This document shows, in pieces, positions 1-64,000 of a stretch of DNA of 64,000 nucleotides. Position 1 is the first letter of the stretch, and the number at the start of each line of letters is the position of its first letter. The position numbers and the translations under genes were made by a program. The stretch is from Chiloscyllium plagiosum. Its lineage: Eukaryota. The DNA lies in assembly GCF_004010195.1 (NCBI RefSeq), contig NC_057718.1, positions 69,711,213-69,775,212 of the forward strand, written 5' to 3'. The notes beneath the pieces were generated by a model. That model saw nothing but the letters and a program-made list of their open reading frames with translations, ran no database searches and was not told where the DNA came from.

Positions 1-800
1 TTGGTTGTGAAGACTCTCACAATGTTAAGTGTCAACCTGCCTCTGTAGTCCACTCAACAATGCTCTCAAGTTTATTGCCATGCTCAGCTTGAATGGATCC
101 CTATAGCAACACATCACCCATGCAGCAAATAATTCTACGCAAGTTCGCTAAAGAATTAAACATTGTTCCTGAAAGCTTTTCTGGTGCTGATGATATTCGA
201 AAAGAGAACCTACTAAAAATCAAAAATTCTAAACGCGGTTATAAATCCCACAATAAATCTAGACTCCTCTTCTGATGATATTTTCCTGAACCTGCTGTTA
301 GCATCAAATTCAGAGATCATGAGTTCTACCCTAATTTCATGAAGCTGTCACATTGATATCATCGGATGGACTTCTCTTTCCACAGATTTGTTGAATTCTG
401 CACAATCATTGTTTACTCTTAGACATTTGGTTGACATCAGAACTAAACCCACATGAATGTCAACTCATTGTTTTTTTTTAAAACCGCTGGAATGACATCT
501 TGTCTTACCACTAAGTTGTTTTCTTTCTTCACCTCTAGAAGTAAGTGGTGTGGAACCGGTGTGCATGCAGCATATTGATTTCACTTCTGTGCGATCGTGT
601 TCAAATAATGACCAAAATCATTGAGTGGTGAAAATAGCCTCTTTTATCCAGAAACTACAAGAGCACAAGTTTGAGGAAGCAATTGAATCCCCAAATACAG
701 TTCTTACAAGAGCCCCTGTATACACAGTTCTTACGTACAGTAAAATTCCATTAGTATGATGTTATATTGCTTCATCTACAGTAGGTAAACCTACTAGTAG
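1..800 (-). mobile_element. Degenerate Ty3/Gypsy pol (reverse transcriptase) fragment
   Basis: Manual minus-strand translation across frameshifts gives VPHHLLLEVKKE, EFNKSVEREVHPM, EFDANSRFRKI..EESRFIVGFITAF and FRISSAPE...ICCMGDVLL. These match Gypsy RT motifs (LDANSGFWQI, PFGISSAPE, xMDD). Confidence 0.8.
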
Positions 801-868
801 TTGAGGGGCTTCTGTCCTGAGAGACAGAAGATGGGTTAAAACGTGCTAACTGCTGGCTGCTATTTAGA

Positions 869-1169
869 TTACTTACAGTGTGGAAACAGGCCCTTCGGCC
901 CAACAAGTCCACACCGACCCGCCGAAGCGAAACCCACCCATACCCCTACATTTACCCCTACCTAACACTACGGGCAATTTAGCCTGGCCAATTCACCTGA
1001 CCTGCACATCTTTGGACTGTGGGAGGAAACCGGAGCACCCAGAGGAAACCCACGCAGACACGGGGAGAACGTGCAAACTCCACACAGTCAGTCGCCTGAG
1101 GCGGGAATTGAACCCGGGTCTCAGGCGCTGTGAGGCAGCAGTGCTAACCACTGTGCCACCGTGCCGCCC
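869..1169 (-). mobile_element. HE1-type tRNA-derived SINE, full length
   Basis: Minus strand starts GGGCGGCACGGTGGCACAGTGGTTAGC (A box), has GGTTCAATTCC (B box) and a CR1-like 3' tail. ATTTAGA direct repeats at 862-868 and 1170-1176. Confidence 0.9.
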
Positions 1170-1172
1170 ATT

Positions 1173-2050
1173 TAGAGTCATAGAGATGTACAGCATGGAA
1201 ACAGGCCCTTCGGTCCAACCTGTCTATGCCAACCAGATATCTCAACCCAACCTAGTCCCACCTGCCAGCACCCGGCCCATATCCATCCAAACCCTTCCTG
1301 TTCATATACCCATCCAAATGCCTCTTAAATGTTGCAATTGTACCAGCCTCCACCACTTCCTCTGGTAGCTCATTCCATAAACGTTGCCCCTTAGGTCTCT
1401 TTTATATCTTTCTCTTCTCACCCTAAACCTATGCCCTCTAGTTCTGGACTCCCCCACCCCAGGGAAAAGACTTTGCCTATTTATCCAATCCATGCCCCTC
1501 ATAATTTTGTAAAACTCTATAAGGTCACCCCTCAGCCTCAGATGCTCCAGGAAAAACAGCCCCAGCCTGTTCAGCCTCTCCCTATAGCTCAGATCCTCCA
1601 ACCCTGGCAACATCCTTGTAAAACTTTTCTGAACCCTTTCAAGTTTCACAACATCTTTCCAATAGGAAGGAGACCAGAATTGCACACAATATTCCAACAG
1701 TGGTCTAACTAATGTCCTGTACAGCTGCAACATGACCTCCCAACTCCTGGTACTCAATACTCTGACCAATAAAGGAAAGCATACCAAACGCCTTCTTCAC
1801 TATCCTATCTAACTGTGACTCTACTTTCAAGGAGCTATCAACCTGCACGCCAAGGTCTCTTTGTTCAGCAACACTCCCAAGGACCTTACCATTAAGTGTA
1901 TAAATCCTGCTAAGATTTGCTTTCCCAAAATGCAGCACCTCGCATTTATCTGAATTAAACTCCATCTGCCACTTCTCAGCCCATTGGCCCATCTGGTCAA
2001 GATCCTGTTGTATAATCTGAGGTGCCTCTCTTTGCTGTCCACTACACCTC
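1173..2050 (-). mobile_element. CR1 LINE, 5'-truncated 3' portion
   Basis: ORFs WAEKWQMEFNSDKCEVLHFG and LYRTLVRPLLEYCVQFWSP; 3' tail at 1173. Confidence 0.9.
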
Positions 2051-2530
2051 TGGTGGGATTAGGAGTGTCTGTCTGGTCTGCTCACATAATTAAGAGGTGT
2101 TAATCCTAGTCTTTTAAATTAGTAAATGTTCGTAAACATACTAGGCCTTTATGCTGTAAATAAGTTAGAAATTGTACCTGTATTTAATAAAAGAATAATG
2201 GATATTAAACTGAATACCGCAGCTGGGTTGTGAGATTTGTTTACTATTTGCTGGTGCGAGTTTCAATCATTCAGGCAATTTCATGGACGATAGTTTCTTA
2301 AAGGGATAACAGCCCAGTTAAAAAGGTATTTAATAGGTACTTACAAATTGTAGAAACTGTTTGGTGTTAAGTAATCTATCCAGGCCCGAGAGACAGTTGG
2401 TAAGGGCTGATTAATATTATAATGTTTCGTGGAGACTTGACGTTATTGTTTACGATATTGACACTTATTCAGAGGTGGCCAGGGCTGATAAGATGTGAAA
2501 ATGCAGTAATGGGTTTGAAAGGGCTGTTTT

Positions 2531-5080
2531 GATTAGTATGGGCTGAGGTTAGAAACAGGAAAGGAGAGGTCACCCTTTTGGGAGTTGTCTATCGGCCTCC
2601 GAATAGTTCCAGAAATGTAGAGGAAAGGCTAGCAAAAATAATTCTGGATAGAAGTGAGTGTAACAGGTTAGTTGTTATGGGGGTCTTTAATTTTCCAAAT
2701 ATTGGCTGGAAATATTATAGTTTGAGTACTTTAGATGGGTCAGTATTTGTGCAATGTGTGCAGGATGGTTTCCTGACACAGTATGTAGACAGGCCAACAA
2801 GGGCCAAGGCCACATTGGATTTGGTACTGGGTACTGGGTAATGAACCTGGCCAGGAGTTAGATTTGGAGGTAGGTGAGCACTTTGGTGATGGAACCGAAT
2901 TGTGGTCACTGTTTCCTCTGATGAAAAGGAATAGGTACACTCGGCAGGACAAAAGCTATTGCTGAGGGAAAGGCAATTATGATGCAATTAGACAAGATTT
3001 AGGATGCATAGGATGGGGAAGAAACTGCAGGGGATGGGCACAATTGAAATGTGGAGCTTATTCAAAGAACAGCTACTACTTGATAAGTATGTACCTGTCA
3101 GGCAGGGAGGAAGAGGTTGAGCGAGGGAGCTGTGGTTTAATAAAGAAGTTGAATCCCTTGTCAAGAGGAAGAAGGTGGCTTATGTTAGGATGAGACATGA
3201 AGGCAGAATTAGGGCACTTGAGAGTTACAAGTTAGACAGGAAAGACCTAACGAGAGAGCTAAGAGCCAGGAGGGGACATGAGAAGTCATTGGCAGATGGG
3301 ATCAAGGGAAACTCTAAAGCTTTCTATAGGTATATCAGGAATAAACGAATGACTGGAAGGAGGTTAGGGCCAATCAAGGATAGTAGTGGGAAGTTTTGCG
3401 TGGAGTCTGAGGACATAGGGGAAGCGCTAAATGACCACACTGGAAAAAAACAATGTTGTCGAGGAGAATACGGAGGTACAGGCTATTAGACTAGACCGGA
3501 TTGATGTTAGCAAGGAGGAGGGGTTAGCAATTCTGGAAAGTGTAAAACTAGATAAGACCCCTGAGCCAAACGGGATTTGTCCTAGGATTCATATTTGCAG
3601 GGAGGAGATTGCAAAGCCTTTGGCTTTGATCTTTATGTTGTCATTATCTACAGGAATAGTGCCAGAAGACTGGAGGATAGCAAATGTTGTTCTCTTGATC
3701 AAAAAAGTAGTAGAGACAACCCTGGTAATTATAGACCAGTGAGCCTTACTTCAGTTGTGAGTAAAGTGTTGGAAAAGGTGATAAGAAATAGGATTTATAA
3801 TCATCTAGAGAGGAATAAGTTGATTAGGGATAGTCAACATGGTTTTATGAAGGGTAGGTCATGCCTCACAAACCAAATCTTTGAGAAGGTGATCAAACAG
3901 GTGAATGAGGGTAAAGTGGTTGATGTGATGTATATGGATTTCAGTAAGGCATTTGATAAGGTTCCCCACAATAGGCTATTGCACAAAATACAGAGGCATG
4001 AGAGTGTGGGCGATTTAGCTGTTGGGATCATATATTGGCTAGCTGAAAGAAGATAGAGGGTGATAGTTGATGGGAAATATTCATCCTAGTATTCATACTA
4101 GTGGTATACTGCAAGGAACTGTTTTGGAGCCATTGCTTTTTGCCATTTTTATAAATGACCTGGATGAGGGCGTAGAAAGATTACTTAGTAAATCTATGGA
4201 TGACACGAAGGTCGGTGGAGTTGTGGATAGTGCTGTAGGGTGTCACAGGTTAGAGGGACATAGATAAGCTGCAGAGCTGGGCCGACAGGTGGCAAATTGA
4301 GTTTAATGCGGAAAAGTGAGAGGTGATTCACTTTGGAAGGAGCAAAGAAATAAAGAGTACTGGGCTAATGGCAAGATTCTTGGTAGTGTAGATGAGCAGA
4401 GAGATCTGTGTCCACGTACATAGATTCTTGAAAGTTGCCATCCAGGTTGACAGGGTTGTTAAGAAGGCATACAATGTGTTAGCTTCTGTTGGTAGAGGGA
4501 TTGGGTTTTGGAGCCATGAGGTCATGCTGCAACAGTACAAAACTCTGGTGCGGCCGCACTTGGAGTATTGCATGCAGTTTTGGTCACCATATTATAGGAA
4601 GAATGTGGAAGCTTTGGAAAGGGTTCAGAGAAGATTTACCAGGATGTTGCCTGGTATGGAGAGAAGGTTTTATGAGGAAAGGCTGAGAGACTGGAGGCTG
4701 TTTTTGTTAGAGAGGAGAAGGTTGAGATGTGACTTAATTGAGACATATAAGATAATCAGAGGGTTAGATAGAATGGACAGTGAGAGCCTTTTTCCTCGGA
4801 TGGTGATGGCTAGTACGAGGGGACATAGCTTTTAATTGAATTTGGTAGATATAGGACAGATGTCAGAGGTAGTTTCTTTACTTAGAGAGTAGTAGGGGCA
4901 TGGAGTGCACTGCCTGCAACAGCAGTAGACTTGGCAACTTTAAGGGAATTTAAATGGTCATTGGGTAAATATATGGATGAAAATGGAATAGTGTAAGACA
5001 GATAGACTTTAGATTGGCCCTCGATGTTGCACCGATCTATGGAACCAAAGGGCCTGTACTGCACTGTAATGTTCTATGTT
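2531..5080 (+). mobile_element. CR1 LINE ORF2 (endonuclease + RT), decayed
   Basis: GVVYRPPNS, GVFNFPNI, NYRPVSLTS, YMDFSKAFDKVPH, RPHLEYCMQFWSP; TGTTCTATGTT tail. Probable TSD AAAGGG(C/T)TGTTTT at 2518-2530 and 5081-5093. Confidence 0.92.
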
Positions 5081-5351
5081 AAAGGGTTGTTTTAAATTTG
5101 GTCGATCTTATGACAGCAAAATATAATGCAGAATCACAGTTTTATGAATGAATTAATTAATCCATGTTACAGCAGGGATTTATGAATGAATGAAACAGAA
5201 ATGCAGTGTTCACTTCACTTGTGAGTGGGTTATTAAAAGAGTTATGAATGAATTAACAAAGAACTTGAGAGTGGGAAATATAAAGCATTCGCGAGTTGGT
5301 TAGCAAAGGGCCGAGAATACAATGTGTCTCACTTTTTAGCTTTGTCTTATA

Positions 5352-6010
5352 GAAAGTTGGGTGAGCAAGTTTGCGGATGATACGAAAGTCAGAGGAGTTG
5401 TAGACAGTGAGGAAGGATGTGGCAGGTTACAGCGGGATATAGATAAGCTGCAGAACTGGGCAGAAAGGTGGCAAATGGAGTTCAATGTAGCTAAGTGTGA
5501 GGTGATTCACTTTGGTAAGAGTAACAAAAAGATGGGNNNNNNNNNNNNNNNNNNNNNNNNNNNNNNNNNNNNNNNNNNNNNNNNNNNNNNNNNNNNNNNN
5601 NNNNNNNNNNNNNNNNNNNNNNNNNNNNNNNNNNNNNNNNNNNNNNNNNNNNNNNNNNNNNNNNNNNNNNNNNNNNNNNNNNNNNNNNNNNNNNNNNNNN
5701 NNNNNNNNNNNNNNNNNNNNNNNNNNNNNNNNNNNNNNNNNNNNNNNNNNNNNNNNNNNNNNNNNNNNNNNNNNNNNNGGGGGGGTAGGTATAGGAGAGA
5801 TGTTAGGGGTAGGTTCTTTACTCAGTGAGTCGTGAGTTCATGGAATGCCCTGCCAGTAGCAGTGGTGGACTCTCCCTCATTATGGGCATTTAAGCGGGCA
5901 TTGGATAGGCATATGGAGGATAGTGGGCTAGTGTAGGTTAGGTGGGCTTGGATCGGCGCAACATCGAGGGCCGAAGGGCCTGTACTGCGCTGTATTCTTC
6001 TATGTTCTAT
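5352..6010 (+). mobile_element. CR1 LINE 3' portion spanning an assembly gap
   Basis: KFADDTK...WAERWQMEFN; TTCTATGTTCTATG tail. Confidence 0.88.
5537..5778. other. Assembly gap (N run)
   Basis: Ns in the sequence. Confidence 1.
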
Positions 6011-6959
6011 GACACACTGCTTTCAGTTTGCCCAATCCCACCCATAACTTCAGAAATTCTTCTCTGGAATCTCTGATTGTCCTACACTATTAATGATTAA
6101 ACTCATTTGTCGAATAGAGACAAATTCCATATATGCCTTTATATGCTTTCGGGTGATGTCACAACTCTAATGGAAATTGTGCACATCATTCAATCCCAAT
6201 ATTCCACAAGCCATCATAAATACCTAAACAATAAAGTTAATTGCTAAAGTGGTTAATTTGTCTTACTTTGACAGCTAAGATAAAAGAAACTGATCCCAGG
6301 TTTCATCAATGTACAAGAAAGCAAAATTTACTATAAAGTGGCAAAATGGATTAGTGATACTAACACAAAAACTAAAAATATGTCCCCTTTAAATCACAAC
6401 ACACATTACATTCACACAAAAAGACAAGTCAGAGTTCTGCAGAATATTGTGGTTAGAAAATATGGACAAAAATGAAACAGTTTCTGTGGATTAAGAGTCC
6501 AAACCATGAGATACCTTTCTCACAGTTCTTTTGTTTTCTGTTGCTTGTTAATCGCAGAAGATTCTCATTTTACTAGCTTGTTGGTTGGACCTAGGTTTTT
6601 GTTTGCTTTAGAATTTTCTTTTCCAGACTCTGTGCTCTGGGTTTCTTCTAGTCAGAGGGTGACAGGCAGAGATCTATCTTTACTTGCAGGCTTTCTATAA
6701 GTCTTGGAACTAAGAAAGTAGGTACACTATGTTAAATGCAACTAAAAAGTCCAAAAGCCTCTTGCTCGGTGTTTTTTTTTAAATCAAAGACACTTGAGGT
6801 CAACTTGTCTCACAGAAGTATCATAGTTTCTCCAGAAAGTACATAACTTTGTGCAACCAGTAAGTGAACACCACACAATTCCATCTTTGGTCTTCACATT
6901 GTTTTTAAAATAAACGGACGTGGTACTTGCTTTGCAACACAGTGGTGACCAAACTTCCA

Positions 6960-8350
6960 TTTCGTAGCTTTATAGTTTTAAAATGCCTTTACAGTAAACA
7001 ACTCCAATCAGAAGTTACAATTATTTTCTGTGCTTTTAAAGTTGCTGCTTGTTCTGTTAGAAACTTCAGTGCTGTTTATTCAGCTTGTTTAACAATGTTT
7101 CAACATCCAAAAGAACTGAAACTGAGGCTCCACCCCACATAACTTGAATTGTCGTGACTTTCTACCAGGGCCACTGAATTCCAACAATTTCAACTTGATT
7201 TCTTAGTCTCCTAAGGAGGGTATCTCAGTATCTTGTGAACCGTCTACCTCATGGACTATTTCCTTTTAAAATTTGATCTCTTGGCATGCTCTGCTATTTT
7301 GTTTATGTAGCATACTGCCTGAAAAAGCCCCAATTCTTTTACAATAAAGTTTTACTCTTTTTTAGATTTTAGATTAGATTCCCTACTGTGTGAAAACAGG
7401 CCCTTCGGCCCAACAAGTCCACACCGACCCGCCGAAGCGTAACCCACCCAGACCCATTCTCCGACATTTACCCCTTCATCTAATACTGTGGGCAATTTAG
7501 CGTGGCCAATTCGCCTGACCTGCACATTTTTGGATTGTGGGAGGAAACCAGAGCACCCGCAGGAAACCCACGCAGACACGGGGAGAATATGCAAACTACA
7601 CACAGAGAGTCGCCGGAGGCGGGAATTGAACCCGGGTCTCTGGCGCTGCGAGGCAGCAGTGCTAACCACTGTGCCACCGTACCGCTTTGATGAGACAATT
7701 CCAACAACCATGCCTTTATCTGCCACACCAACAGCAGCTAGTCTGGGCTGGGCTGCCATCAGATGCTTTCCTTCTATTGGTCATCTGTTTACCTGACAAA
7801 TTGAACCATATTTGTTACGTTGAGATTTGGAATGTTTGTCTCTTTTTTGCTGACTATCAATCAGTTCTGCCTCCTGAGCTCAGACTGTTTATTTTATTGA
7901 ATCATGTTCACCAGGATCAAGTTCTCTCAGGATTGCAAATGATCTGATTATGCATCATTCATTGCTCCAACAAATATCATGAATTAGCTTCTCTTTCAGA
8001 TTATGATTTACTGTTGTGCTAACTGGTTGTAATCATTAATAAATACGTTGATGAGTTGTCAACATCTCTGGGTATGTTTATTAATTGGCACGTGTTCCAT
8101 GACAATGATATTGTGAAGATTAAACTATGTCATCGCAAATGCATCAATAACTTGAGCACCTCAGGCATTCTCCTAACTGATCCCCAGACAACGAGATTGA
8201 CGTCCACATAGTTATCTATTGCATGCAAAAATGTGCTGAATTGCTTATGGTCTGCTTTTGCTGCAAATCCAACAGAATACAAAATCAAGAGAATGCAATG
8301 TACCACTGTGGCCATGCTTCAGACTGAGGCCTGCAACTGTCTGAAAGCAC
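6960..8350 (-). mobile_element. Degenerate Ty3/Gypsy gag-protease, interrupted by a SINE
   Basis: Frameshifted minus-strand translation gives LKEKLIHD..VGAMNDA*SDHLQS*ENL..KQSELRRQN (gag), zinc-knuckle remnants CCWCGR*RHGCWNC and ELGLFQAVC, then QFKL..GASVSVLL (protease DTGA region). Confidence 0.7.
7362..7685 (-). mobile_element. HE1-type SINE
   Basis: Same sequence as 869-1169 with TTAGA tail. Confidence 0.9.
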
Positions 8351-55814: not shown

Positions 55815-56027
55815 ACATGAGAGGTAGCTTCCCAGGCAGGGGAAATGTTCCACATTTGGCAGGATTTCTCCATTAATCTTAATGAAGAGATAGACCAGAA
55901 CTTGACCTGGGATGTATTGATAAAGGGGTTGAGTCTTCTTGACGTTGAAGCTGAGACCAATTCTTCAGTATGCATCCACAAGGCATTTTGTAAGGCTTGA
56001 AGATTCTCGTCTGAGAGAGCAGATATG
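55815..56027 (-). mobile_element. RTE-clade LINE RT fragment
   Basis: AY*RIGLSFNVKKTQPLYQ..IKINGEILPNVEHFPCLGSYLS. Confidence 0.7.
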
Positions 56028-56262
56028 TGAAATAACTCCACAGAAGCTGGTATCAGTTCACCAAGTCACCCCTTATTTAAACATGCATAGTATGTGGACT
56101 CTGTTCAGCTAGCTTAGAGCCAGTCCTTAGAGTGAGGAGACTTTTGAATCTCCTGTTTATATCTGTCAGCTAGGGTTCCCTGATTATCTCAGGTTAACAG
56201 CCTTAATCAGGGAAATCATACTTGATGAGATCCTCCTGGCCAACCTTGTTCCAATCATGACA
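56028..56262 (-). repeat. 3' LTR of the Gypsy element
   Basis: TG...CA termini, adjacent polypurine tract (plus strand TCCCTCCC at 56263), homologous to 62546-62670. Confidence 0.8.
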
Positions 56263-57814
56263 TCCCTCCCACACTATGTCTGGAGATGTTAGCCTGTTCT
56301 TTTTCTTGAAGCTCCTCTTGACACTTTTTCGCCCCAGGTCCATTAGCTCTGACTCTGACTCAGATACAGGTGGCATGTATTGGATCATAGCCCGTCTCTT
56401 GCACCTGGAGCATCTGAAAGGAAATTCATCCTCTTCTTCAGGTGGTAACAGTATCAAGGCTGCGATATTAACTGCATTTTTCTTGGACTCTGAGGTTTCT
56501 TTGAAGCTAGACAGAGAGGGAGAACCCATGTTTTGTGACAGCCTTTCTGGCTATTCGAAGGGACCGGGTATGTTTTTCTCCAGCCCTGTTTGCGAGATAG
56601 CAGCTTTCATGTGATCCACATGTTTGTTCAGGACCACCTCACCTACCTGAACTTTGTATGTCACAAGACCTAGCATCAACCTTGCCTTGTACCATGCACA
56701 GCCATGTCCGTGGTTTCAACACCAAACCTTGTCCCATGAAGTAAACTATCTTAAAAAAAGGCATATGGCTGGCCTGGCATTCTTGATACAATTTCACTCT
56801 CCCTTCCAGATCCAGGAATATCAGGTTTAACCTGGTACAGAGTTTTCCTCCCATCAGCACTCTGTTTGAATTATTGCTGTAGATGCATGAGAGGTAGTTC
56901 TATAATTAAACAGGAATTGGGACAATTTGGTATCAAGTGAAGCATTAAGCTTCTTTAAGGCTGCCTTTAATGTTTGGATTGCTCTTTTCACCAGACCATT
57001 TGAATGGAGCTGTTCGAACATGCGAAATGCCTTTCAATTTTAGGAAATACTTGAAATCCCTGCTGGTAAATAGCATCCCATTTTTGGCTACGTCTGCATT
57101 CAATCCTGGTCACCAAAAATAAAGTCTGCTAGCATCCTCATTTTGGAAACCCCTGGATAACTCTTGTGTCTGGCATTGACCTTTACTCTTCATAATAATA
57201 TGTCATCCTCAATGCTGATCTGGTCTCACCAGGTCTAGAAAGGTTTCAATCCTAGTTGTGATGGCCTTTTTAATTTCCCCATCATCACCAGTTGTTTTAG
57301 TTTTACCAAGACGGGATCTTTTCGTGGCCACAGTTGGATATTATCAGCAGTGACCGGAATATGGTCCAAAAAATTTAAAACCAGAACAGACTCTCCCAGG
57401 GATGCACTACTAGTGGTGATCTGCCAGTGGGAAGCAGCTGAAGGTACCTGCATTTACCCCTTGGCCTCCTGGTACTGGTGAAACTTTCTCACACAAAAGG
57501 TAACCAGACCTTCCTTCTGGTGCATTTGCAATCAGCATCAGCCAACATCTGGGATGCATATGCTTTTGGATGTTCCTCTCCATTAAGCCACTGGTGAGTC
57601 ATCACTACTCCCATACTACACAGAGAGGCATCACCTGTCAGCAGCACATCTCGCTTGGGATCGTAGTGGGCCAACACCTCTGACAATGATAGCTACTTTT
57701 TTACTTCCCTAAAAGTCACTTCTTGGCAATGTGACCATTTCCAAGAATGACATTTTTTCAGTAGCATGTGCCAAGATGGAGGCCAAGTTACCTATAAATT
57801 TTCCGTAATATCCA

Positions 57815-59345
57815 GTCCCTCTACACCTCCATCCACCATGACCAGGACCTCCAAGCCCTCCGTTTCTTCCTCTCCCGACGTCCCCAACAGTACCCTTCCA
57901 CCGACACTCTCATTCGTTTGGCCGAACTGGTCCTCACCCTTAACAATTTCTCCTTCGAATCCTCCCACTTCCTCCAGACCAAAAGGGTGGCCATGGGAAC
58001 TCGTATGGGCCCCAGCTATGCCTGTCTCTTTGTTGGCTACGTAGAACAGTCCATCTTCCGTAATTACACCGGCACCACTCCCCACCTCTTCCTCCGCTAC
58101 ATTAAAGAGTGCATTGGTGTCACCTCGTGCTCCCGCAAGGAGGTTGAGCAATTCATCAACTTCACCGACACATTCCACCCTGACCTTAAATTTACTGGAC
58201 CATCTCTGACACCTCCCTCCCCTTCCTGGACCTCTCCATCTCCATTAATGATGACCGACTTGACACTGACATTTTTTACAAACCCACCAACTCCCACAGC
58301 TACCTGGATTACCTCTTCCTACCCTACCTCCTGCAAAAATGCCATCCCGTATTCCCAATTCCTCCGCCTCCGCCGTATCTGCTCCCAGGAGGACCAGTTC
58401 CACCACAGAACACACCAGATGGCCTCCTTCTTTAGAGACCGCAATTTCCCTTCCCACGTGGTTAAAGATGCCCTCCAACACATCTCGTCCACATCCCGCA
58501 CCTCCGCCCTCACACCCCATCCCTCCAACCGTAACAAGGACAGAACGCCCCTCGTGCTCACCTTCCANNNNNNNNNNNNNNNNNNNNNNNNNNNNNNNNN
58601 NNNNNNNNNNNNNNNNNNNNNNNNNNNNNNNNNNNNNNNNNNNNNNNNNNNNNNNNNNNNNNNNNNNNNNNNNNNNNNNNNNNNNNNNNNNNNNNNNNNN
58701 NNNNNNNNNNNNNNNNNNNNNNNNNNNNNNNNNNNNNNNNNNNNNNNNNNNNNNNNNNNNNNNNNNNNNNNNNNNNNNNNNNNNNNNNNNNNNNNNNNNN
58801 NNNNNNNNNNNNNNNNNNNNNNNNNNNNNNNNNNNNNNNNNNNNNNNNNNNNNNNNNNNNNNNNNNNNNNNNNNNNNNNNNNNNNNNNNNNNNNNNNNNN
58901 NNNNNNNNNNNNNNNNNNNNNNNNNNNNNNNNNNNNNNNNNNNNNNNNNNNNNNNNNNNNNNNNNNNNNNNNNNNNNNNNNNNNNNNNNNNNNNNNNNNN
59001 NNNNNNNNNNNNNNNNNNNNNNNNNNNNNNNNNNNNNNNNNNNNNNNNNNNNNNNNNNNNNNNNNNNNNNNNNNNNNNNNNNNNNNNNNNNNNNNNNNNN
59101 NNNNNNNNNNNNNNNNNNNNNNNNNNNNNNNNNNNNNNNNNNNNNNNNNNNNNNNNNNNNNNNNNNNNNNNNTCCTCTCATTTATCTCTCCACCCTTTAG
59201 GCATTCTGCCTGTATTCCTGATGAAGGACTTTTGCCCGAAACTTTAATTTTACTGCTCCTCGGATGCTGCCTGAACTGCTGTGCTTTTCCAGCACCACTA
59301 ATCCAGAATCTGGTTTCCAGCATCTGCAGTCATTGTTTTCACCAA
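57815..59345 (+). mobile_element. Penelope-like element RT (spans gap)
   Basis: VAMGTRMGPSYACLFVGYVE, LRYIKEC (decayed YIDD), AIPYSQFLRLRRICS; terminal repeat with CTGATGA..GAAA at ~59218-59242. Confidence 0.92.
58568..59172. other. Assembly gap (N run)
   Basis: Ns in the sequence. Confidence 1.
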
Positions 59346-59711
59346 ATCAAGGAAAGACCTAAGTTCTGGTATAGACATGGGAGCTGGGACACATTTGATC
59401 GCTTTTATTTTATGTTCCAATGGGTGTAACCTTGAATGAACAACTCTGTAGCCCAAGTAGTCCACTTGGGGTGCTTAGAACACACACTTTTCCCATCTAG
59501 GACCTATGCCTGCCTGAGAGAAATATTTAAACACCATGTCTATGTACTCCAAATGCATTTCATTGGTCTTTCTGATTACTAGCACGACTTCCAGATAAAT
59601 GGCAAACTGGGGTTAACCTTGCAAAATGTTGTCCATCATCCACTGGAAAAGGGCACAGGGTGATAATACCCCAAATGGCAGTCTTCTATATTGGTTCAAG
59701 CCCTTATAGGT

Positions 59712-60019: not shown

Positions 60020-60677
60020 ACTAATTGTGGCAAACTTCAGGGACTCCTCTTCATACACAATTAGAGGTATGCATGGCTCATGTTCTGCTTTGTGACAGAC
60101 AGCTCCCTCCCCTCTAGGCAAGGGACAGGGTAATTACTCAGCTACAAGAAGTGGTTTACTATTGGCTTAAAATCCCCATGACGGCAAACCAACCCATCAG
60201 GCTTCACAATTGGTATAATTGTCCCAATGTCATTTGCCTAGAAAAAAAAACACATTCTTTTCACATGCAGGGCTCAGTCTTCAGAGGCAGCATCAAACTA
60301 GTCAAGCTTCCCAAATAAAGGTGCTGCCCATTCCACAAATTGTACTAATTGTTTGTTGATCCCTTCATTTTCCAGCCTCATTTCTGCCTCTACATTTGCA
60401 CATAAGGCACTGGGTGAGTCTTGCAGAAACATGGTTTGTCTTCCTGACCACTATGTAAGGTAGTCTTGGCTCCTTTGGAAGTCCCTAGACCTTCCTGAAA
60501 ATCTTTCAGGTATTTAATTCAGGCAGCCATTTTCTAACTGAAAAATGTTGAGTCAATCAAGGTGAATCATTCTCAACCAATTCTGCCCCATCACGCTTGA
60601 GCCTGAGAATTTTACCACAATCAGTGGTGATTGCACCAACTACTTCTCATGGGACAGTGGAACCAAAGTTGAACCTG

Positions 60678-62357: not shown

Positions 62358-62545
62358 ATTATTTGTTGCTTTTTCAACTGCCCCAATGTCATTTGCCCAG
62401 ACAAAAAACATATTCTTTTCATATACAGGATTGAACTGGTCAAGCTTCCTAAATAAAGGCATGATCCTAGAAAGGCTTACCACTACTCAAAGATGACTTT
62501 TGCAAGCAAAATGTCTAGGAGTGTACAGTTTTATTTCGTCACCAC

Positions 62546-62670
62546 TGAAATAACTCCATGAAGGCCGGTATCCCATCACCAAGTCACCCTTAATTTATAT
62601 TTGCTCAGTACATGTAGCTGGCTCAGAGCCAATCCCGAGAGTGAACGTAAACTCTGACACTCCTGTTTAT
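62546..62670 (-). repeat. 5' LTR of the Gypsy element (R/U5 side), interrupted at its TATA box
   Basis: Aligns to 56028-56160 up to CTCCTGTTTAT, where the alignment breaks. Confidence 0.8.
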
Positions 62671-62807
62671 TTATTTTTTTCTTTTCTTTTTCTTTCAGTT
62701 TCTACCACTAGGAAGAAAAGAAACACTCAAGTGGCCAGTGACAAGCAATGCCCTTCACATCAAAACACTCCTGGTTTTTTTTGTTTGTTTTTTTCTCTTC
62801 TTTTTTT

Positions 62808-63094
62808 CAACAGGCCCTTCGGCCCAACAAGTCCACACTGACCCTTCGAAGAGTAACCCACCCAGACTCCTTTCCCTCTCACTAATGCACCGAACACCAT
62901 GGGCAATTTAGCATAGCCAATTCACCTGACCTGCTCATCTTTGGACTGTGGGAGGAAACCGGAGCACCCGGAGGAAACCCACGCAGACACGGGGAGAATG
63001 TGCAAACTCTACACAGTCACCAGAGGCTGGAATCGAACCTGGGACCCTGGTGCTGTGAGGCAGCAGTGCTGACCACTGAGCCACCATGCTGCCC
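62808..63094 (-). mobile_element. HE1-type SINE with poly(A) tail (array unit B)
   Basis: Complete tRNA head; body ends at GGGCCTGTTG followed by an A-rich tail instead of (TCTAA)n. Confidence 0.88.
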
Positions 63095-63107
63095 TCACAC
63101 TCCTGTT

Positions 63108-63460
63108 AATTTTTAAAAATTTTTTGCTATACCAATTTCCATTTAATTAGTAGTAAGAAAAAGACTGAGGAATTAGTGACAGCTATTGCGTTTTCATACA
63201 GAAGGCACAGAATATCCCATATGACAGGGAATCACAGATTGCAGTCAGTTCAGTCACTCTCCCCCCACGGTGAGCCTGTCAAACAGGTACTCTCCCAGGC
63301 CATTCTCAGGGGCTCCCAATCTCTTCAGGTTGGTGATATGATCTCCCAGATTCTTGATCATCTTCACTTGCTTATCCAGGTAGTGTCCCTCCAGGAAGTC
63401 ACAAAGATGAGGGTCCATGTGGTCAGAGGAGAATTTGTGCAGATCCAGCAGACTCTAGTT
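63108..63460 (-). pseudogene. Ferritin (heavy/middle-type) processed pseudogene, 5'-truncated (array unit C)
   Basis: [63 protein letters not shown], then 3'UTR, ATTAAA and an A-rich tail. Confidence 0.95.
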
Positions 63461-63559
63461 ACACTCCTGTTTTTTTTTGCGGGTGTGAGACACAGTGAGA
63501 GACACAAGGTGTATGAATCTTTATTCAATTTCCACCACCAGGAAGATACACTCCTGTTT

Positions 63560-63977
63560 TTTTTTCTTCTTATTTTTTAACCCCCACACTACCGCCTAAC
63601 TGTGGTAGTGCTTATTTTTTCCCCAGCACCCATGGTGTGCGTGTGCAGGTGTGAGACACAGTGAGAGACACAAGGTGCATGAATCTTTATTCAATTTCCA
63701 CCACCAGGAAGATAGGAAAACACCCGGGTGGCCAGTGACAAGCACTCCCCTTCACATCAAAGGGCAGTGCTGTGTGATCAAACAGTGAGGGGGAGGGTAG
63801 GGACTAAATCAAAATAGAGTTGGAGGGAGAAATAATGCACTCCACTCCCTGCGGCGCCCACCTCTCCCTGAACAACTCCAGGGTGTTGGTGGACACCCCA
63901 TGCTCCTTCTCCAAGGACACCCGGGCCCTAACGTAACTGCGGAAGAGGGGCAGGCAGTCGGCACTAACGACCCCCTA
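63560..63977 (-). mobile_element. Tx1-clade LINE 3' end (array unit E); shorter copies at 62669-62764 and 63473-63547
   Basis: ORF2 C-terminus DCLPLFRSYVRARVSLEKEH..LELFRERWAPQGVECII, stop at 63804-63806; 3'UTR shared with units A and D. Confidence 0.8.
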
Positions 63978-64000
63978 TCACTCCTGTTTATTTTTTAAAA

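What the first reader, a model, noticed from the sequence alone, without database searches (positions are those of the whole stretch)
63108..63472. Host ferritin mRNA retroposed into the Tx1 target site
Seen: ferritin C-terminal ~70 codons with a premature stop and a terminal frameshift, 3'UTR, ATTAAA and A tail, bounded by the same target repeat. Established: vertebrate ferritin genes have an intron at DPH|LCD, and it is absent here. Inference: a site-specific Tx1 enzyme mobilised a cellular mRNA in trans, producing a processed pseudogene at a predetermined address.
Basis: partly seen in the sequence, partly recalled or inferred. Interest (0 to 1): 0.72.

Follow-up and report, generated by a model that had tools for sequence, protein, structure and literature searches.

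The report
Ferritin retrocopy in Tx1 target stack
A dead, partial DNA copy of a shark ferritin messenger RNA sits at the exact spot in an old mobile element where a target-seeking jumping gene has landed several times, which suggests that this enzyme can aim at one DNA address and yet copy unrelated RNAs into it.

Summary
Confirmed. Minus strand 63460-63108 is a 5'-truncated ferritin copy: 70 codons, an early TAG, a one-base frameshift, 124-nt trailer, ATTAAA and a degenerate A tail, between two copies of an 11-nt motif. It is one of five same-direction inserts, each closed by A tail plus motif, at the TATA box of a Gypsy-like LTR. The others are three pieces of a Tx1-like LINE and a SINE that ends in an A tail, where 9 of 9 other window copies end in their normal tail. 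The closest ferritins belong to a large bamboo-shark gene family whose gene models break at DPH|LCD, so an intron was lost. Limits: the parent gene was not found, other intronless ferritin copies exist, and the family's genome-wide specificity was not measured. Most likely the Tx1-like protein copied the mRNA in trans (about 70%). Tx1 targeting of other transposons and trans-mobilised SINEs are published (crocodilians). This scan already noted the LTR targeting elsewhere in this genome. I found no report of a protein-coding mRNA at such a site. It is a single neutral event; its value is as a footprint of the enzyme.

The parts
63250..63460 (-). Ferritin coding remnant, from the N of (DV)NQSLL to the old stop after GESD; TAG at 63457-63455; extra G in run 63266-63261; exon junction DPH|LCD at 63407|63406
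63126..63249 (-). Putative ferritin 3' UTR with ATTAAA at 63147-63142; not matched to a parent gene beyond its first 10-35 nt
63108..63125 (-). Degenerate A tail of the ferritin insert (11 A, 7 T)
63097..63107 (-). Target-site duplication, 3' copy for the ferritin insert (AACAGGAGTGT)
63461..63471 (-). Target-site duplication, 5' copy; three related contigs stop matching exactly at 63460
63472..63547 (-). Short Tx1-like 3' UTR piece (97% to 63644-63714) with its own short A tail, ending about 100 nt before the 3' end of the longer copy
63548..63558 (-). Target motif copy
63559..63978 (-). 5'-truncated Tx1-like LINE: last 56 codons of ORF2 (63974-63807), 3' UTR, A tail
63979..64000 (-). Target motif copy (one base shorter at the 5' junction) and an A-rich run that leaves the window
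62776..63096 (-). SINE copy (HE1-like; name recalled) lacking its normal 3' tail and ending in an A-rich tail
62765..62775 (-). Target motif copy with one mismatch
62668..62764 (-). Third, more diverged Tx1-like 3' UTR piece (85% over 72 nt) whose A tail starts at the place of the AATAAA of the longer copy
62546..62667 (-). Last motif copy (62657-62667) and the downstream half of the interrupted LTR
56026..56262 (-). Uninterrupted relative of the LTR (70% over 135 columns): TG...CA ends, purine tract at 56270-56263, TATAAA at 56161-56156 running into a 2-mismatch variant of the motif; follows a decayed pol with RT_RNaseH_2

Best explanation
A ferritin mRNA from the large, clustered shark ferritin family was copied into DNA in trans by the ORF2 protein of a Tx1-like LINE that prefers one site at the TATA box of a Gypsy-like LTR family. 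The endonuclease nicked the T-rich strand within TATAAA, the freed T end primed on the mRNA's poly(A), synthesis stopped after about 350 nt, and the second cut 11-12 nt away duplicated the motif. Each insertion rebuilds the motif, so the site was reused at least five times: three times with the element's own RNA (three different 3' ends), once with a SINE RNA and once with the mRNA. The insert had no promoter or start codon from the outset and has decayed neutrally. Shown: identity, junctions, motif, stack, LTR context, presence of the same insertion in two coded organisms. Inferred: the enzyme, the order of the cuts, poly(A)-only template choice, ovary as source tissue.
For: Six motif copies in one orientation bound five inserts, each with an A tail on its 3' side. 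The 5' junction falls after the same base at the ferritin, the third Tx1-like piece and the LTR remainder, is compatible with it at two more junctions, and is one base shorter at one. All 3 copies of this LINE's 3' end in the 64-kb window lie in the stack. The ORF2 end is 46% identical (26 of 56, E 5e-13) to the last residues of a 1308-aa endonuclease-RT-zf-RVT protein, whose relative is named 'transposon TX1 uncharacterized 149 kDa protein'. The SINE in the stack ends in an A tail, whereas 9 of 9 other window copies that reach that point continue with TCCACACTG-like sequence and AATCT repeats: a second foreign RNA at the same site. In run X4, five different contigs carry the LINE's 3' end, a tail and the motif; a joint 63624 to 63461 in X1 and X2 shows another LINE-motif-LINE stack. 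Breaks in 119 ferritin gene models pile up at three places, residues 34-36, 81-83 and 124-129, the last at DPH|LCD; 14 of 120 proteins have an insertion or join right after DPH, 4 of them starting with V as a read-through GT donor would give. Contig depth falls at the junction (112-229) against 606-2113 on either side. Shark ferritin clusters are ovary-expressed in Greenland shark (10.1101/2024.09.09.611499, section 6 read), which would give access to the germ line.
Against: No parent gene with this 3' end was seen: 63126-63239 has only single-copy depth, mostly on contigs of this same insertion, and one ferritin contig departs 10 nt after the stop; 0 of 151 ferritin proteins read into the trailer. 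Five of 14 listed pieces cross DPH|LCD without an intron, and no loose end at the junction is among the 18 rows shown (587 more hidden); the depth dip could partly come from a cluster of mismatches there. The LINE's 3' UTR has depth 2e5-2e6 against about 4-20 for single-copy DNA, so the family is very large and its share at this motif is unknown; the five X4 contigs are the longest pieces and so selected for carrying the motif. The nick site resembles the loose T-rich site of ordinary L1 enzymes (recalled). The tail is not pure A. No RT or endonuclease domain of the element lies in the window.
Confidence: 0.7

Rival explanations
1. Generic hot spot. The ferritin retrocopy was made by some other poly(A)-recognising L1-type enzyme that nicks T-rich sites; the LTR TATA box and the A tails of earlier inserts simply offered such a site.
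For: The nick lies in a T-rich stretch like the loose L1 site (recalled). The Tx1-like family is very abundant and may not be confined to this motif; one earlier scan note (e1-7788809) reached that view for a similar stack. Retrocopies are common in cartilaginous fishes (14,081 counted; 10.64898/2026.06.26.734816, passages).
Against: A loose enzyme should give duplications of varied length and cut within the long A tails; here every 5' junction falls at the same base or one base short. No L1 fragment is in the stack, and 3 of the 5 inserts are this LINE's own RNA.
Confidence: 0.17
2. Passenger of a read-through transcript. The ferritin piece entered a stack elsewhere, or was joined by template switching, and part of the stack moved here as one unit that ended at the ferritin ATTAAA.
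For: The pieces lie head to tail in one direction downstream of an LTR promoter, and stacks exist elsewhere. Template switching and co-transcription are discussed for Tx1-Mar and SINEU (PMC4494074, parts 3 and 4 read).
Against: The motif and a separate A tail lie between the ferritin and the upstream piece, which a template switch would not leave. The trailer has single-copy depth, so no second copy of the ferritin unit was seen. A first insertion at the motif is still needed, so the main conclusion would stand.
Confidence: 0.08
3. DNA-level duplication or break repair with a piece of an intronless ferritin locus.
For: Intronless ferritin sequences exist in all three DNA-like runs (5 bridging contigs, 10-25 differences); the parent was not found; the tail is degenerate.
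Against: The flanking motif is shared with non-ferritin inserts and with the LTR, so it is not ferritin flank. Three intronless relatives stop matching exactly at 63460, with no shared bases at the junction. Signal, tail, duplication and orientation all follow the pattern of the other four inserts.
Confidence: 0.05

Closest known systems
Crocodilian Tx1-Mar LINEs and SINEU (Kojima 2015, PMC4494074; passages and parts 3-4 of 5 read, supplements not read)
   Same: Tx1-clade LINEs that prefer sites in another transposon; foreign RNAs (SINEU) inserted at the same sites and attributed to them by shared target; tandem insertions; Tx1-8_Crp and Tx1-4_AMi prefer LTR retrotransposons. The closest full-length protein I found is also from alligator.
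   Different: The passengers there are SINE families with snRNA heads. Here the passenger is a protein-coding mRNA, plus a SINE whose listed partner is another LINE, in a shark, at an LTR TATA box.
L1-made processed pseudogenes of mammals (PMC3747384, passages; PMC2912911, abstract only)
   Same: 5'-truncated, exon-joined mRNA copy with A tail and target-site duplication, made in trans through poly(A) recognition.
   Different: L1 inserts at a loose site throughout the genome; here the site is a fixed motif reused five times with a nearly fixed duplication.
Tx1L of Xenopus laevis in Tx1D (known here only from its mention in PMC4494074 and from memory)
   Same: Endonuclease-RT LINE of the same group that inserts at a set site in another transposon.
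   Different: Target is a DNA transposon; I saw no report of mRNA passengers.
Vertebrate retrocopy survey (10.64898/2026.06.26.734816, passages; bioRxiv supplements closed)
   Same: States that CR1 or Tx1 elements sustain retroduplication outside mammals; counts 14,081 retrocopies in cartilaginous fishes.
   Different: In the passages read the link is a correlation with genome content ('target site' occurs 0 times in the main text); this locus offers a junction-level attribution.

Membership tests
Processed pseudogene (TPRT retrocopy) | Derived from a cellular protein-coding gene | tested here: met
   Ferritin, E 8.8e-27; 91% to bamboo-shark ferritins
Processed pseudogene (TPRT retrocopy) | Lacks an intron present in the source gene family | tested here: met
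   Contiguous at 63407|63406; gene-model breaks cluster there. Indirect: no genomic intron sequence was seen, and intronless copies also exist
Processed pseudogene (TPRT retrocopy) | A tail after a polyadenylation signal | tested here: met
   ATTAAA 16 nt before an 18-nt tail with 11 A; tail degenerate
Processed pseudogene (TPRT retrocopy) | Target-site duplication | tested here: met
   11-nt AACAGGAGTGT on both sides
Processed pseudogene (TPRT retrocopy) | 3' end coincides with the poly(A) site of an identified parent gene | tested here: inconclusive
   Parent trailer not seen in three contig sets, which have holes; the one raw RNA run gave 1 read, not on ferritin
Tx1-clade LINE (neighbouring element) | ORF2 of endonuclease-RT-zinc finger type related to Tx1 | tested here: met
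   Last 56 aa match the C-terminus of such a protein, 46%, E 5e-13; its relative is named TX1 149 kDa protein
Tx1-clade LINE (neighbouring element) | RT-domain phylogeny places it in the Tx1 clade | not testable with these tools
   No RT domain in the window, no genome held
Target-specific Tx1 family (criterion of PMC4494074) | More than 20% of copies flanked by the same target | tested here: inconclusive
   3 of 3 in the window; 5 selected contigs in X4; no unbiased tally; metagenome scans empty
RNA mobilised in trans by that Tx1 family | Same site, orientation and duplication as the element's own copies | tested here: met
   Junction table
RNA mobilised in trans by that Tx1 family | The protein inserts unrelated poly(A) RNA at the motif in an assay | not testable with these tools
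   Needs a retrotransposition assay

The most novel reading that the evidence does not exclude
This shark Tx1-like protein combines a sequence-specific endonuclease with L1-like relaxed template choice: it writes any poly(A) RNA into one 11-12-nt motif that it rebuilds each time. LTR TATA sites would then be stacked archives of germ-line RNAs, and a measurable share of shark retrocopies would sit at this motif, just downstream of an LTR promoter.
Probability: 0.4. Interest if true: 0.68.

Novelty: new variant of a known kind. Interest (0 to 1): 0.46.

Why it matters
The insert itself is a dead fragment. It matters as a footprint: which enzyme makes retrocopies outside mammals is mostly inferred from correlations, and a fixed target motif lets a retrocopy be assigned to one LINE family. 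It makes that question directly countable in shark assemblies. It also bears on whether target-specific LINEs must recognise their own 3' ends strictly: three different 3' ends of the element's own RNA, a re-tailed SINE and an mRNA at one site point to poly(A)-only recognition. An enzyme with a fixed DNA address and open RNA choice would interest people building RNA-templated insertion tools.

Tried and rejected
No genome is held for this window, so the parent search and the genome-wide tally could not be run. Run search: no RNA holder listed, best share of words 0.21. The raw single-cell RNA run X22 gave 1 read, on the LINE tail: no evidence on expression. Two scans of metagenome contigs, by DNA pattern and by protein alignment, found nothing. 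The word-indexed protein search with the 54-aa ORF2 end found nothing; the unindexed search found 24 proteins, of which P0123 and P0142 are repeat-rich chance hits. Pfam has no family for the 56-aa piece itself. Rfam: 0 matches in the window. I considered a 5' microhomology between motif and ferritin (an SV-N reading) and rejected it: the closest relatives read DVNQ and three contigs stop matching at 63460. The sequence look-up of earlier findings returned nothing. No paper giving the shark ferritin exon structure was found (listings); the Squalomix preprint has 0 mentions of ferritin. Joints that put a SINE head next to LINE pieces without ferritin (63086 to 63522, 63087 to 63580, one contig each, sides of 25 and 22 letters) are too weak to call an empty allele.

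Full report
Verdict. The insert is a processed ferritin pseudogene fragment, and the best explanation is trans-mobilisation by the Tx1-like LINE that shares its site (about 70%). Both halves of that story are known separately; I did not find the combination with a protein-coding mRNA in print.

What is there. On the minus strand, 63460-63250 encodes the last third of a ferritin (PDB E 8.8e-27; Pfam). The second codon is TAG where 109 of 115 matching relatives have Q. One extra G near the end shifts the frame; related copies lack it at depth 410 of 423, 147 of 168 and 387 of 430. A 124-nt trailer follows, with ATTAAA 16 nt before an 18-nt tail of 11 A and 7 T. The 11-mer AACAGGAGTGT stands on both sides. 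The fragment has no start codon, so both lesions are later decay.

The stack. The 10-mer core occurs 5 times exactly, all on one strand within 1.4 kb, against 0.11 expected in the window; a sixth copy has one mismatch. The six copies bound five inserts in one direction, each ending in an A tail: a LINE end (63978-63559), a short piece of its 3' UTR, the ferritin, a SINE, and a third LINE piece. The 5' junction lies after the same T at the ferritin, the third piece and the LTR remainder, is compatible with it at the SINE and the short piece, and is one base shorter at the long LINE piece. The stack runs off the window at 64000.

The target. The DNA after the last motif is 70% identical over 135 columns to 56028-56160. 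That copy is part of an uninterrupted 237-bp LTR with TG...CA ends and a purine tract, following a decayed pol with an RT_RNaseH_2 match (E 4.8e-09); 'Gypsy-like' rests on that order of parts and on recalled motifs. There TATAAA runs into a variant of the motif with two mismatches. So the address is the TATA box of an LTR family, and this variant copy has no insertion.

The LINE. Its last 56 codons match the C-terminus of a 1308-aa alligator protein with endonuclease, RT and zf-RVT domains (26 of 56 identical, E 5e-13); a relative of that protein is named 'transposon TX1 uncharacterized 149 kDa protein'. All 3 copies of its 3' end in the window are in the stack, and they end at three different places. 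In public contigs its 3' UTR reaches depth 2e5-2e6 against about 4-20 for single-copy DNA. Five listed X4 contigs carry 3' end, tail and motif, and one joint in X1 and X2 shows another piece-motif-piece stack. These pieces are the longest ones and so favour the motif; four other listed pieces stop in the tail and say nothing. Genome-wide specificity remains unmeasured.

An internal control. The SINE in the stack (HE1-like, name recalled; HE1 is listed with the partner LINE HER1 in PMC3747384, table passage) stops short and ends in an A-rich tail. All 9 other window copies that reach that point continue with a TCCACACTG-like sequence and AATCT repeats. So a second foreign RNA entered the site by way of an A tail.

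The source. The closest proteins are bamboo-shark ferritins at up to 91%, in clusters of 54 and 127 members. Contig depth on the coding part is 350-7000, so the genomes hold many copies. The Greenland shark preprint reports 155 and 179 ferritin gene copies, about 80% in three clusters, with ovary-specific expression of the largest (10.1101/2024.09.09.611499, section 6 read). An abundant ovary mRNA is a natural substrate for a heritable retrocopy; that the same holds in this species is inferred.

The intron argument. Breaks in 119 gene models aligned to one reference pile up at residues 34-36, 81-83 and 124-129, the pattern of three introns, the third at DPH|LCD. Fourteen of 120 proteins have an insertion or join right after DPH (four further rows were point changes or an unrelated match and were not counted). 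Depth at the junction is 112-229 against 606-2113 beside it. Against this: 5 of the 14 listed pieces on the coding part cross the junction with no intron (10-25 differences from the window), no loose end at the junction is among the rows shown, and mismatches cluster there. The family has the intron, but intronless copies exist too, so the tail and the duplication carry more weight than the missing intron.

Parent and age. The trailer 63126-63239 has only single-copy depth. Two contigs run from it through the motif into the SINE (X2, 1 difference in 107; X4, 7 differences and a gap over 63072-63265), so the same insertion is present in coded organisms A and B and is older than their split. A second X4 contig covers only about the first 35 nt of the trailer, and one X2 contig departs 10 nt after the stop. 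The parent was therefore not found; the contig sets have holes even over this locus, so its absence is weak evidence.

Comparison with what is known. Kojima 2015 (PMC4494074; passages and parts 3-4 of 5 read) describes crocodilian Tx1 families that prefer sites in a Mariner element or in LTR retrotransposons, tandem insertions, and SINEs assigned to them by shared target. A 2026 survey names CR1 or Tx1 as drivers of retrocopies outside mammals, by correlation in the passages read. Searches for a cellular mRNA at the site of a target-specific LINE (listings only, except the papers named) gave no such report; the library lacks most subscription journals and Repbase, and supplements were not read. 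Earlier notes of this scan describe the same LTR targeting at other places in this genome (unchecked); none listed an mRNA passenger at such a site, and a report on my own stretch was withheld.

Score. Real, cleanly built, but one neutral event within a known kind of targeting: interest 0.46. It would rise if a genome-wide count shows many RNAs written at this motif.

Noticed in passing
window 62776-63096: SINE copy in the stack has lost its normal tail and carries an A-rich tail; 9 of 9 other window copies keep the normal tail.
   Followed up: yes
window 56026-57800: Decayed Gypsy-like element on the minus strand with an uninterrupted 3' LTR whose TATA-box site differs from the target motif at two bases and carries no insertion.
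   Followed up: partly
window 63478-63548 and 62694-62764: The Tx1-like RNA was copied from three different 3' ends; the 3' UTR region has contig depth up to 2e6, so it may also move as a short non-autonomous form.
   Followed up: partly
runs X1, X2, X4 on window 63270-63460: Several other intronless ferritin sequences (contigs of 127-2568 nt, 10-25 differences) exist in these genomes, probably further retrocopies; their flanks were not seen.
   Followed up: no
protein P0144: A Heptranchias gene model joins a Tx1-like ORF2 end to a ferritin; possibly a LINE next to or inside a ferritin gene, or a prediction artefact.
   Followed up: partly
window 57798-59429: Reverse-transcriptase-like open frame (Penelope-like by recalled motifs) interrupted by a 605-base run of N at 58568-59172; another N run at 5537-5778.
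   Followed up: no
window 60217-60321 and 62376-62459: A short diverged direct repeat (70% over 105 columns) about 2.1 kb apart, unexplained.
   Followed up: no
protein P0150: A 90-aa record filed as Salmonella ferritin clusters with shark ferritins, probably a mislabelled or contaminating sequence.
   Followed up: no
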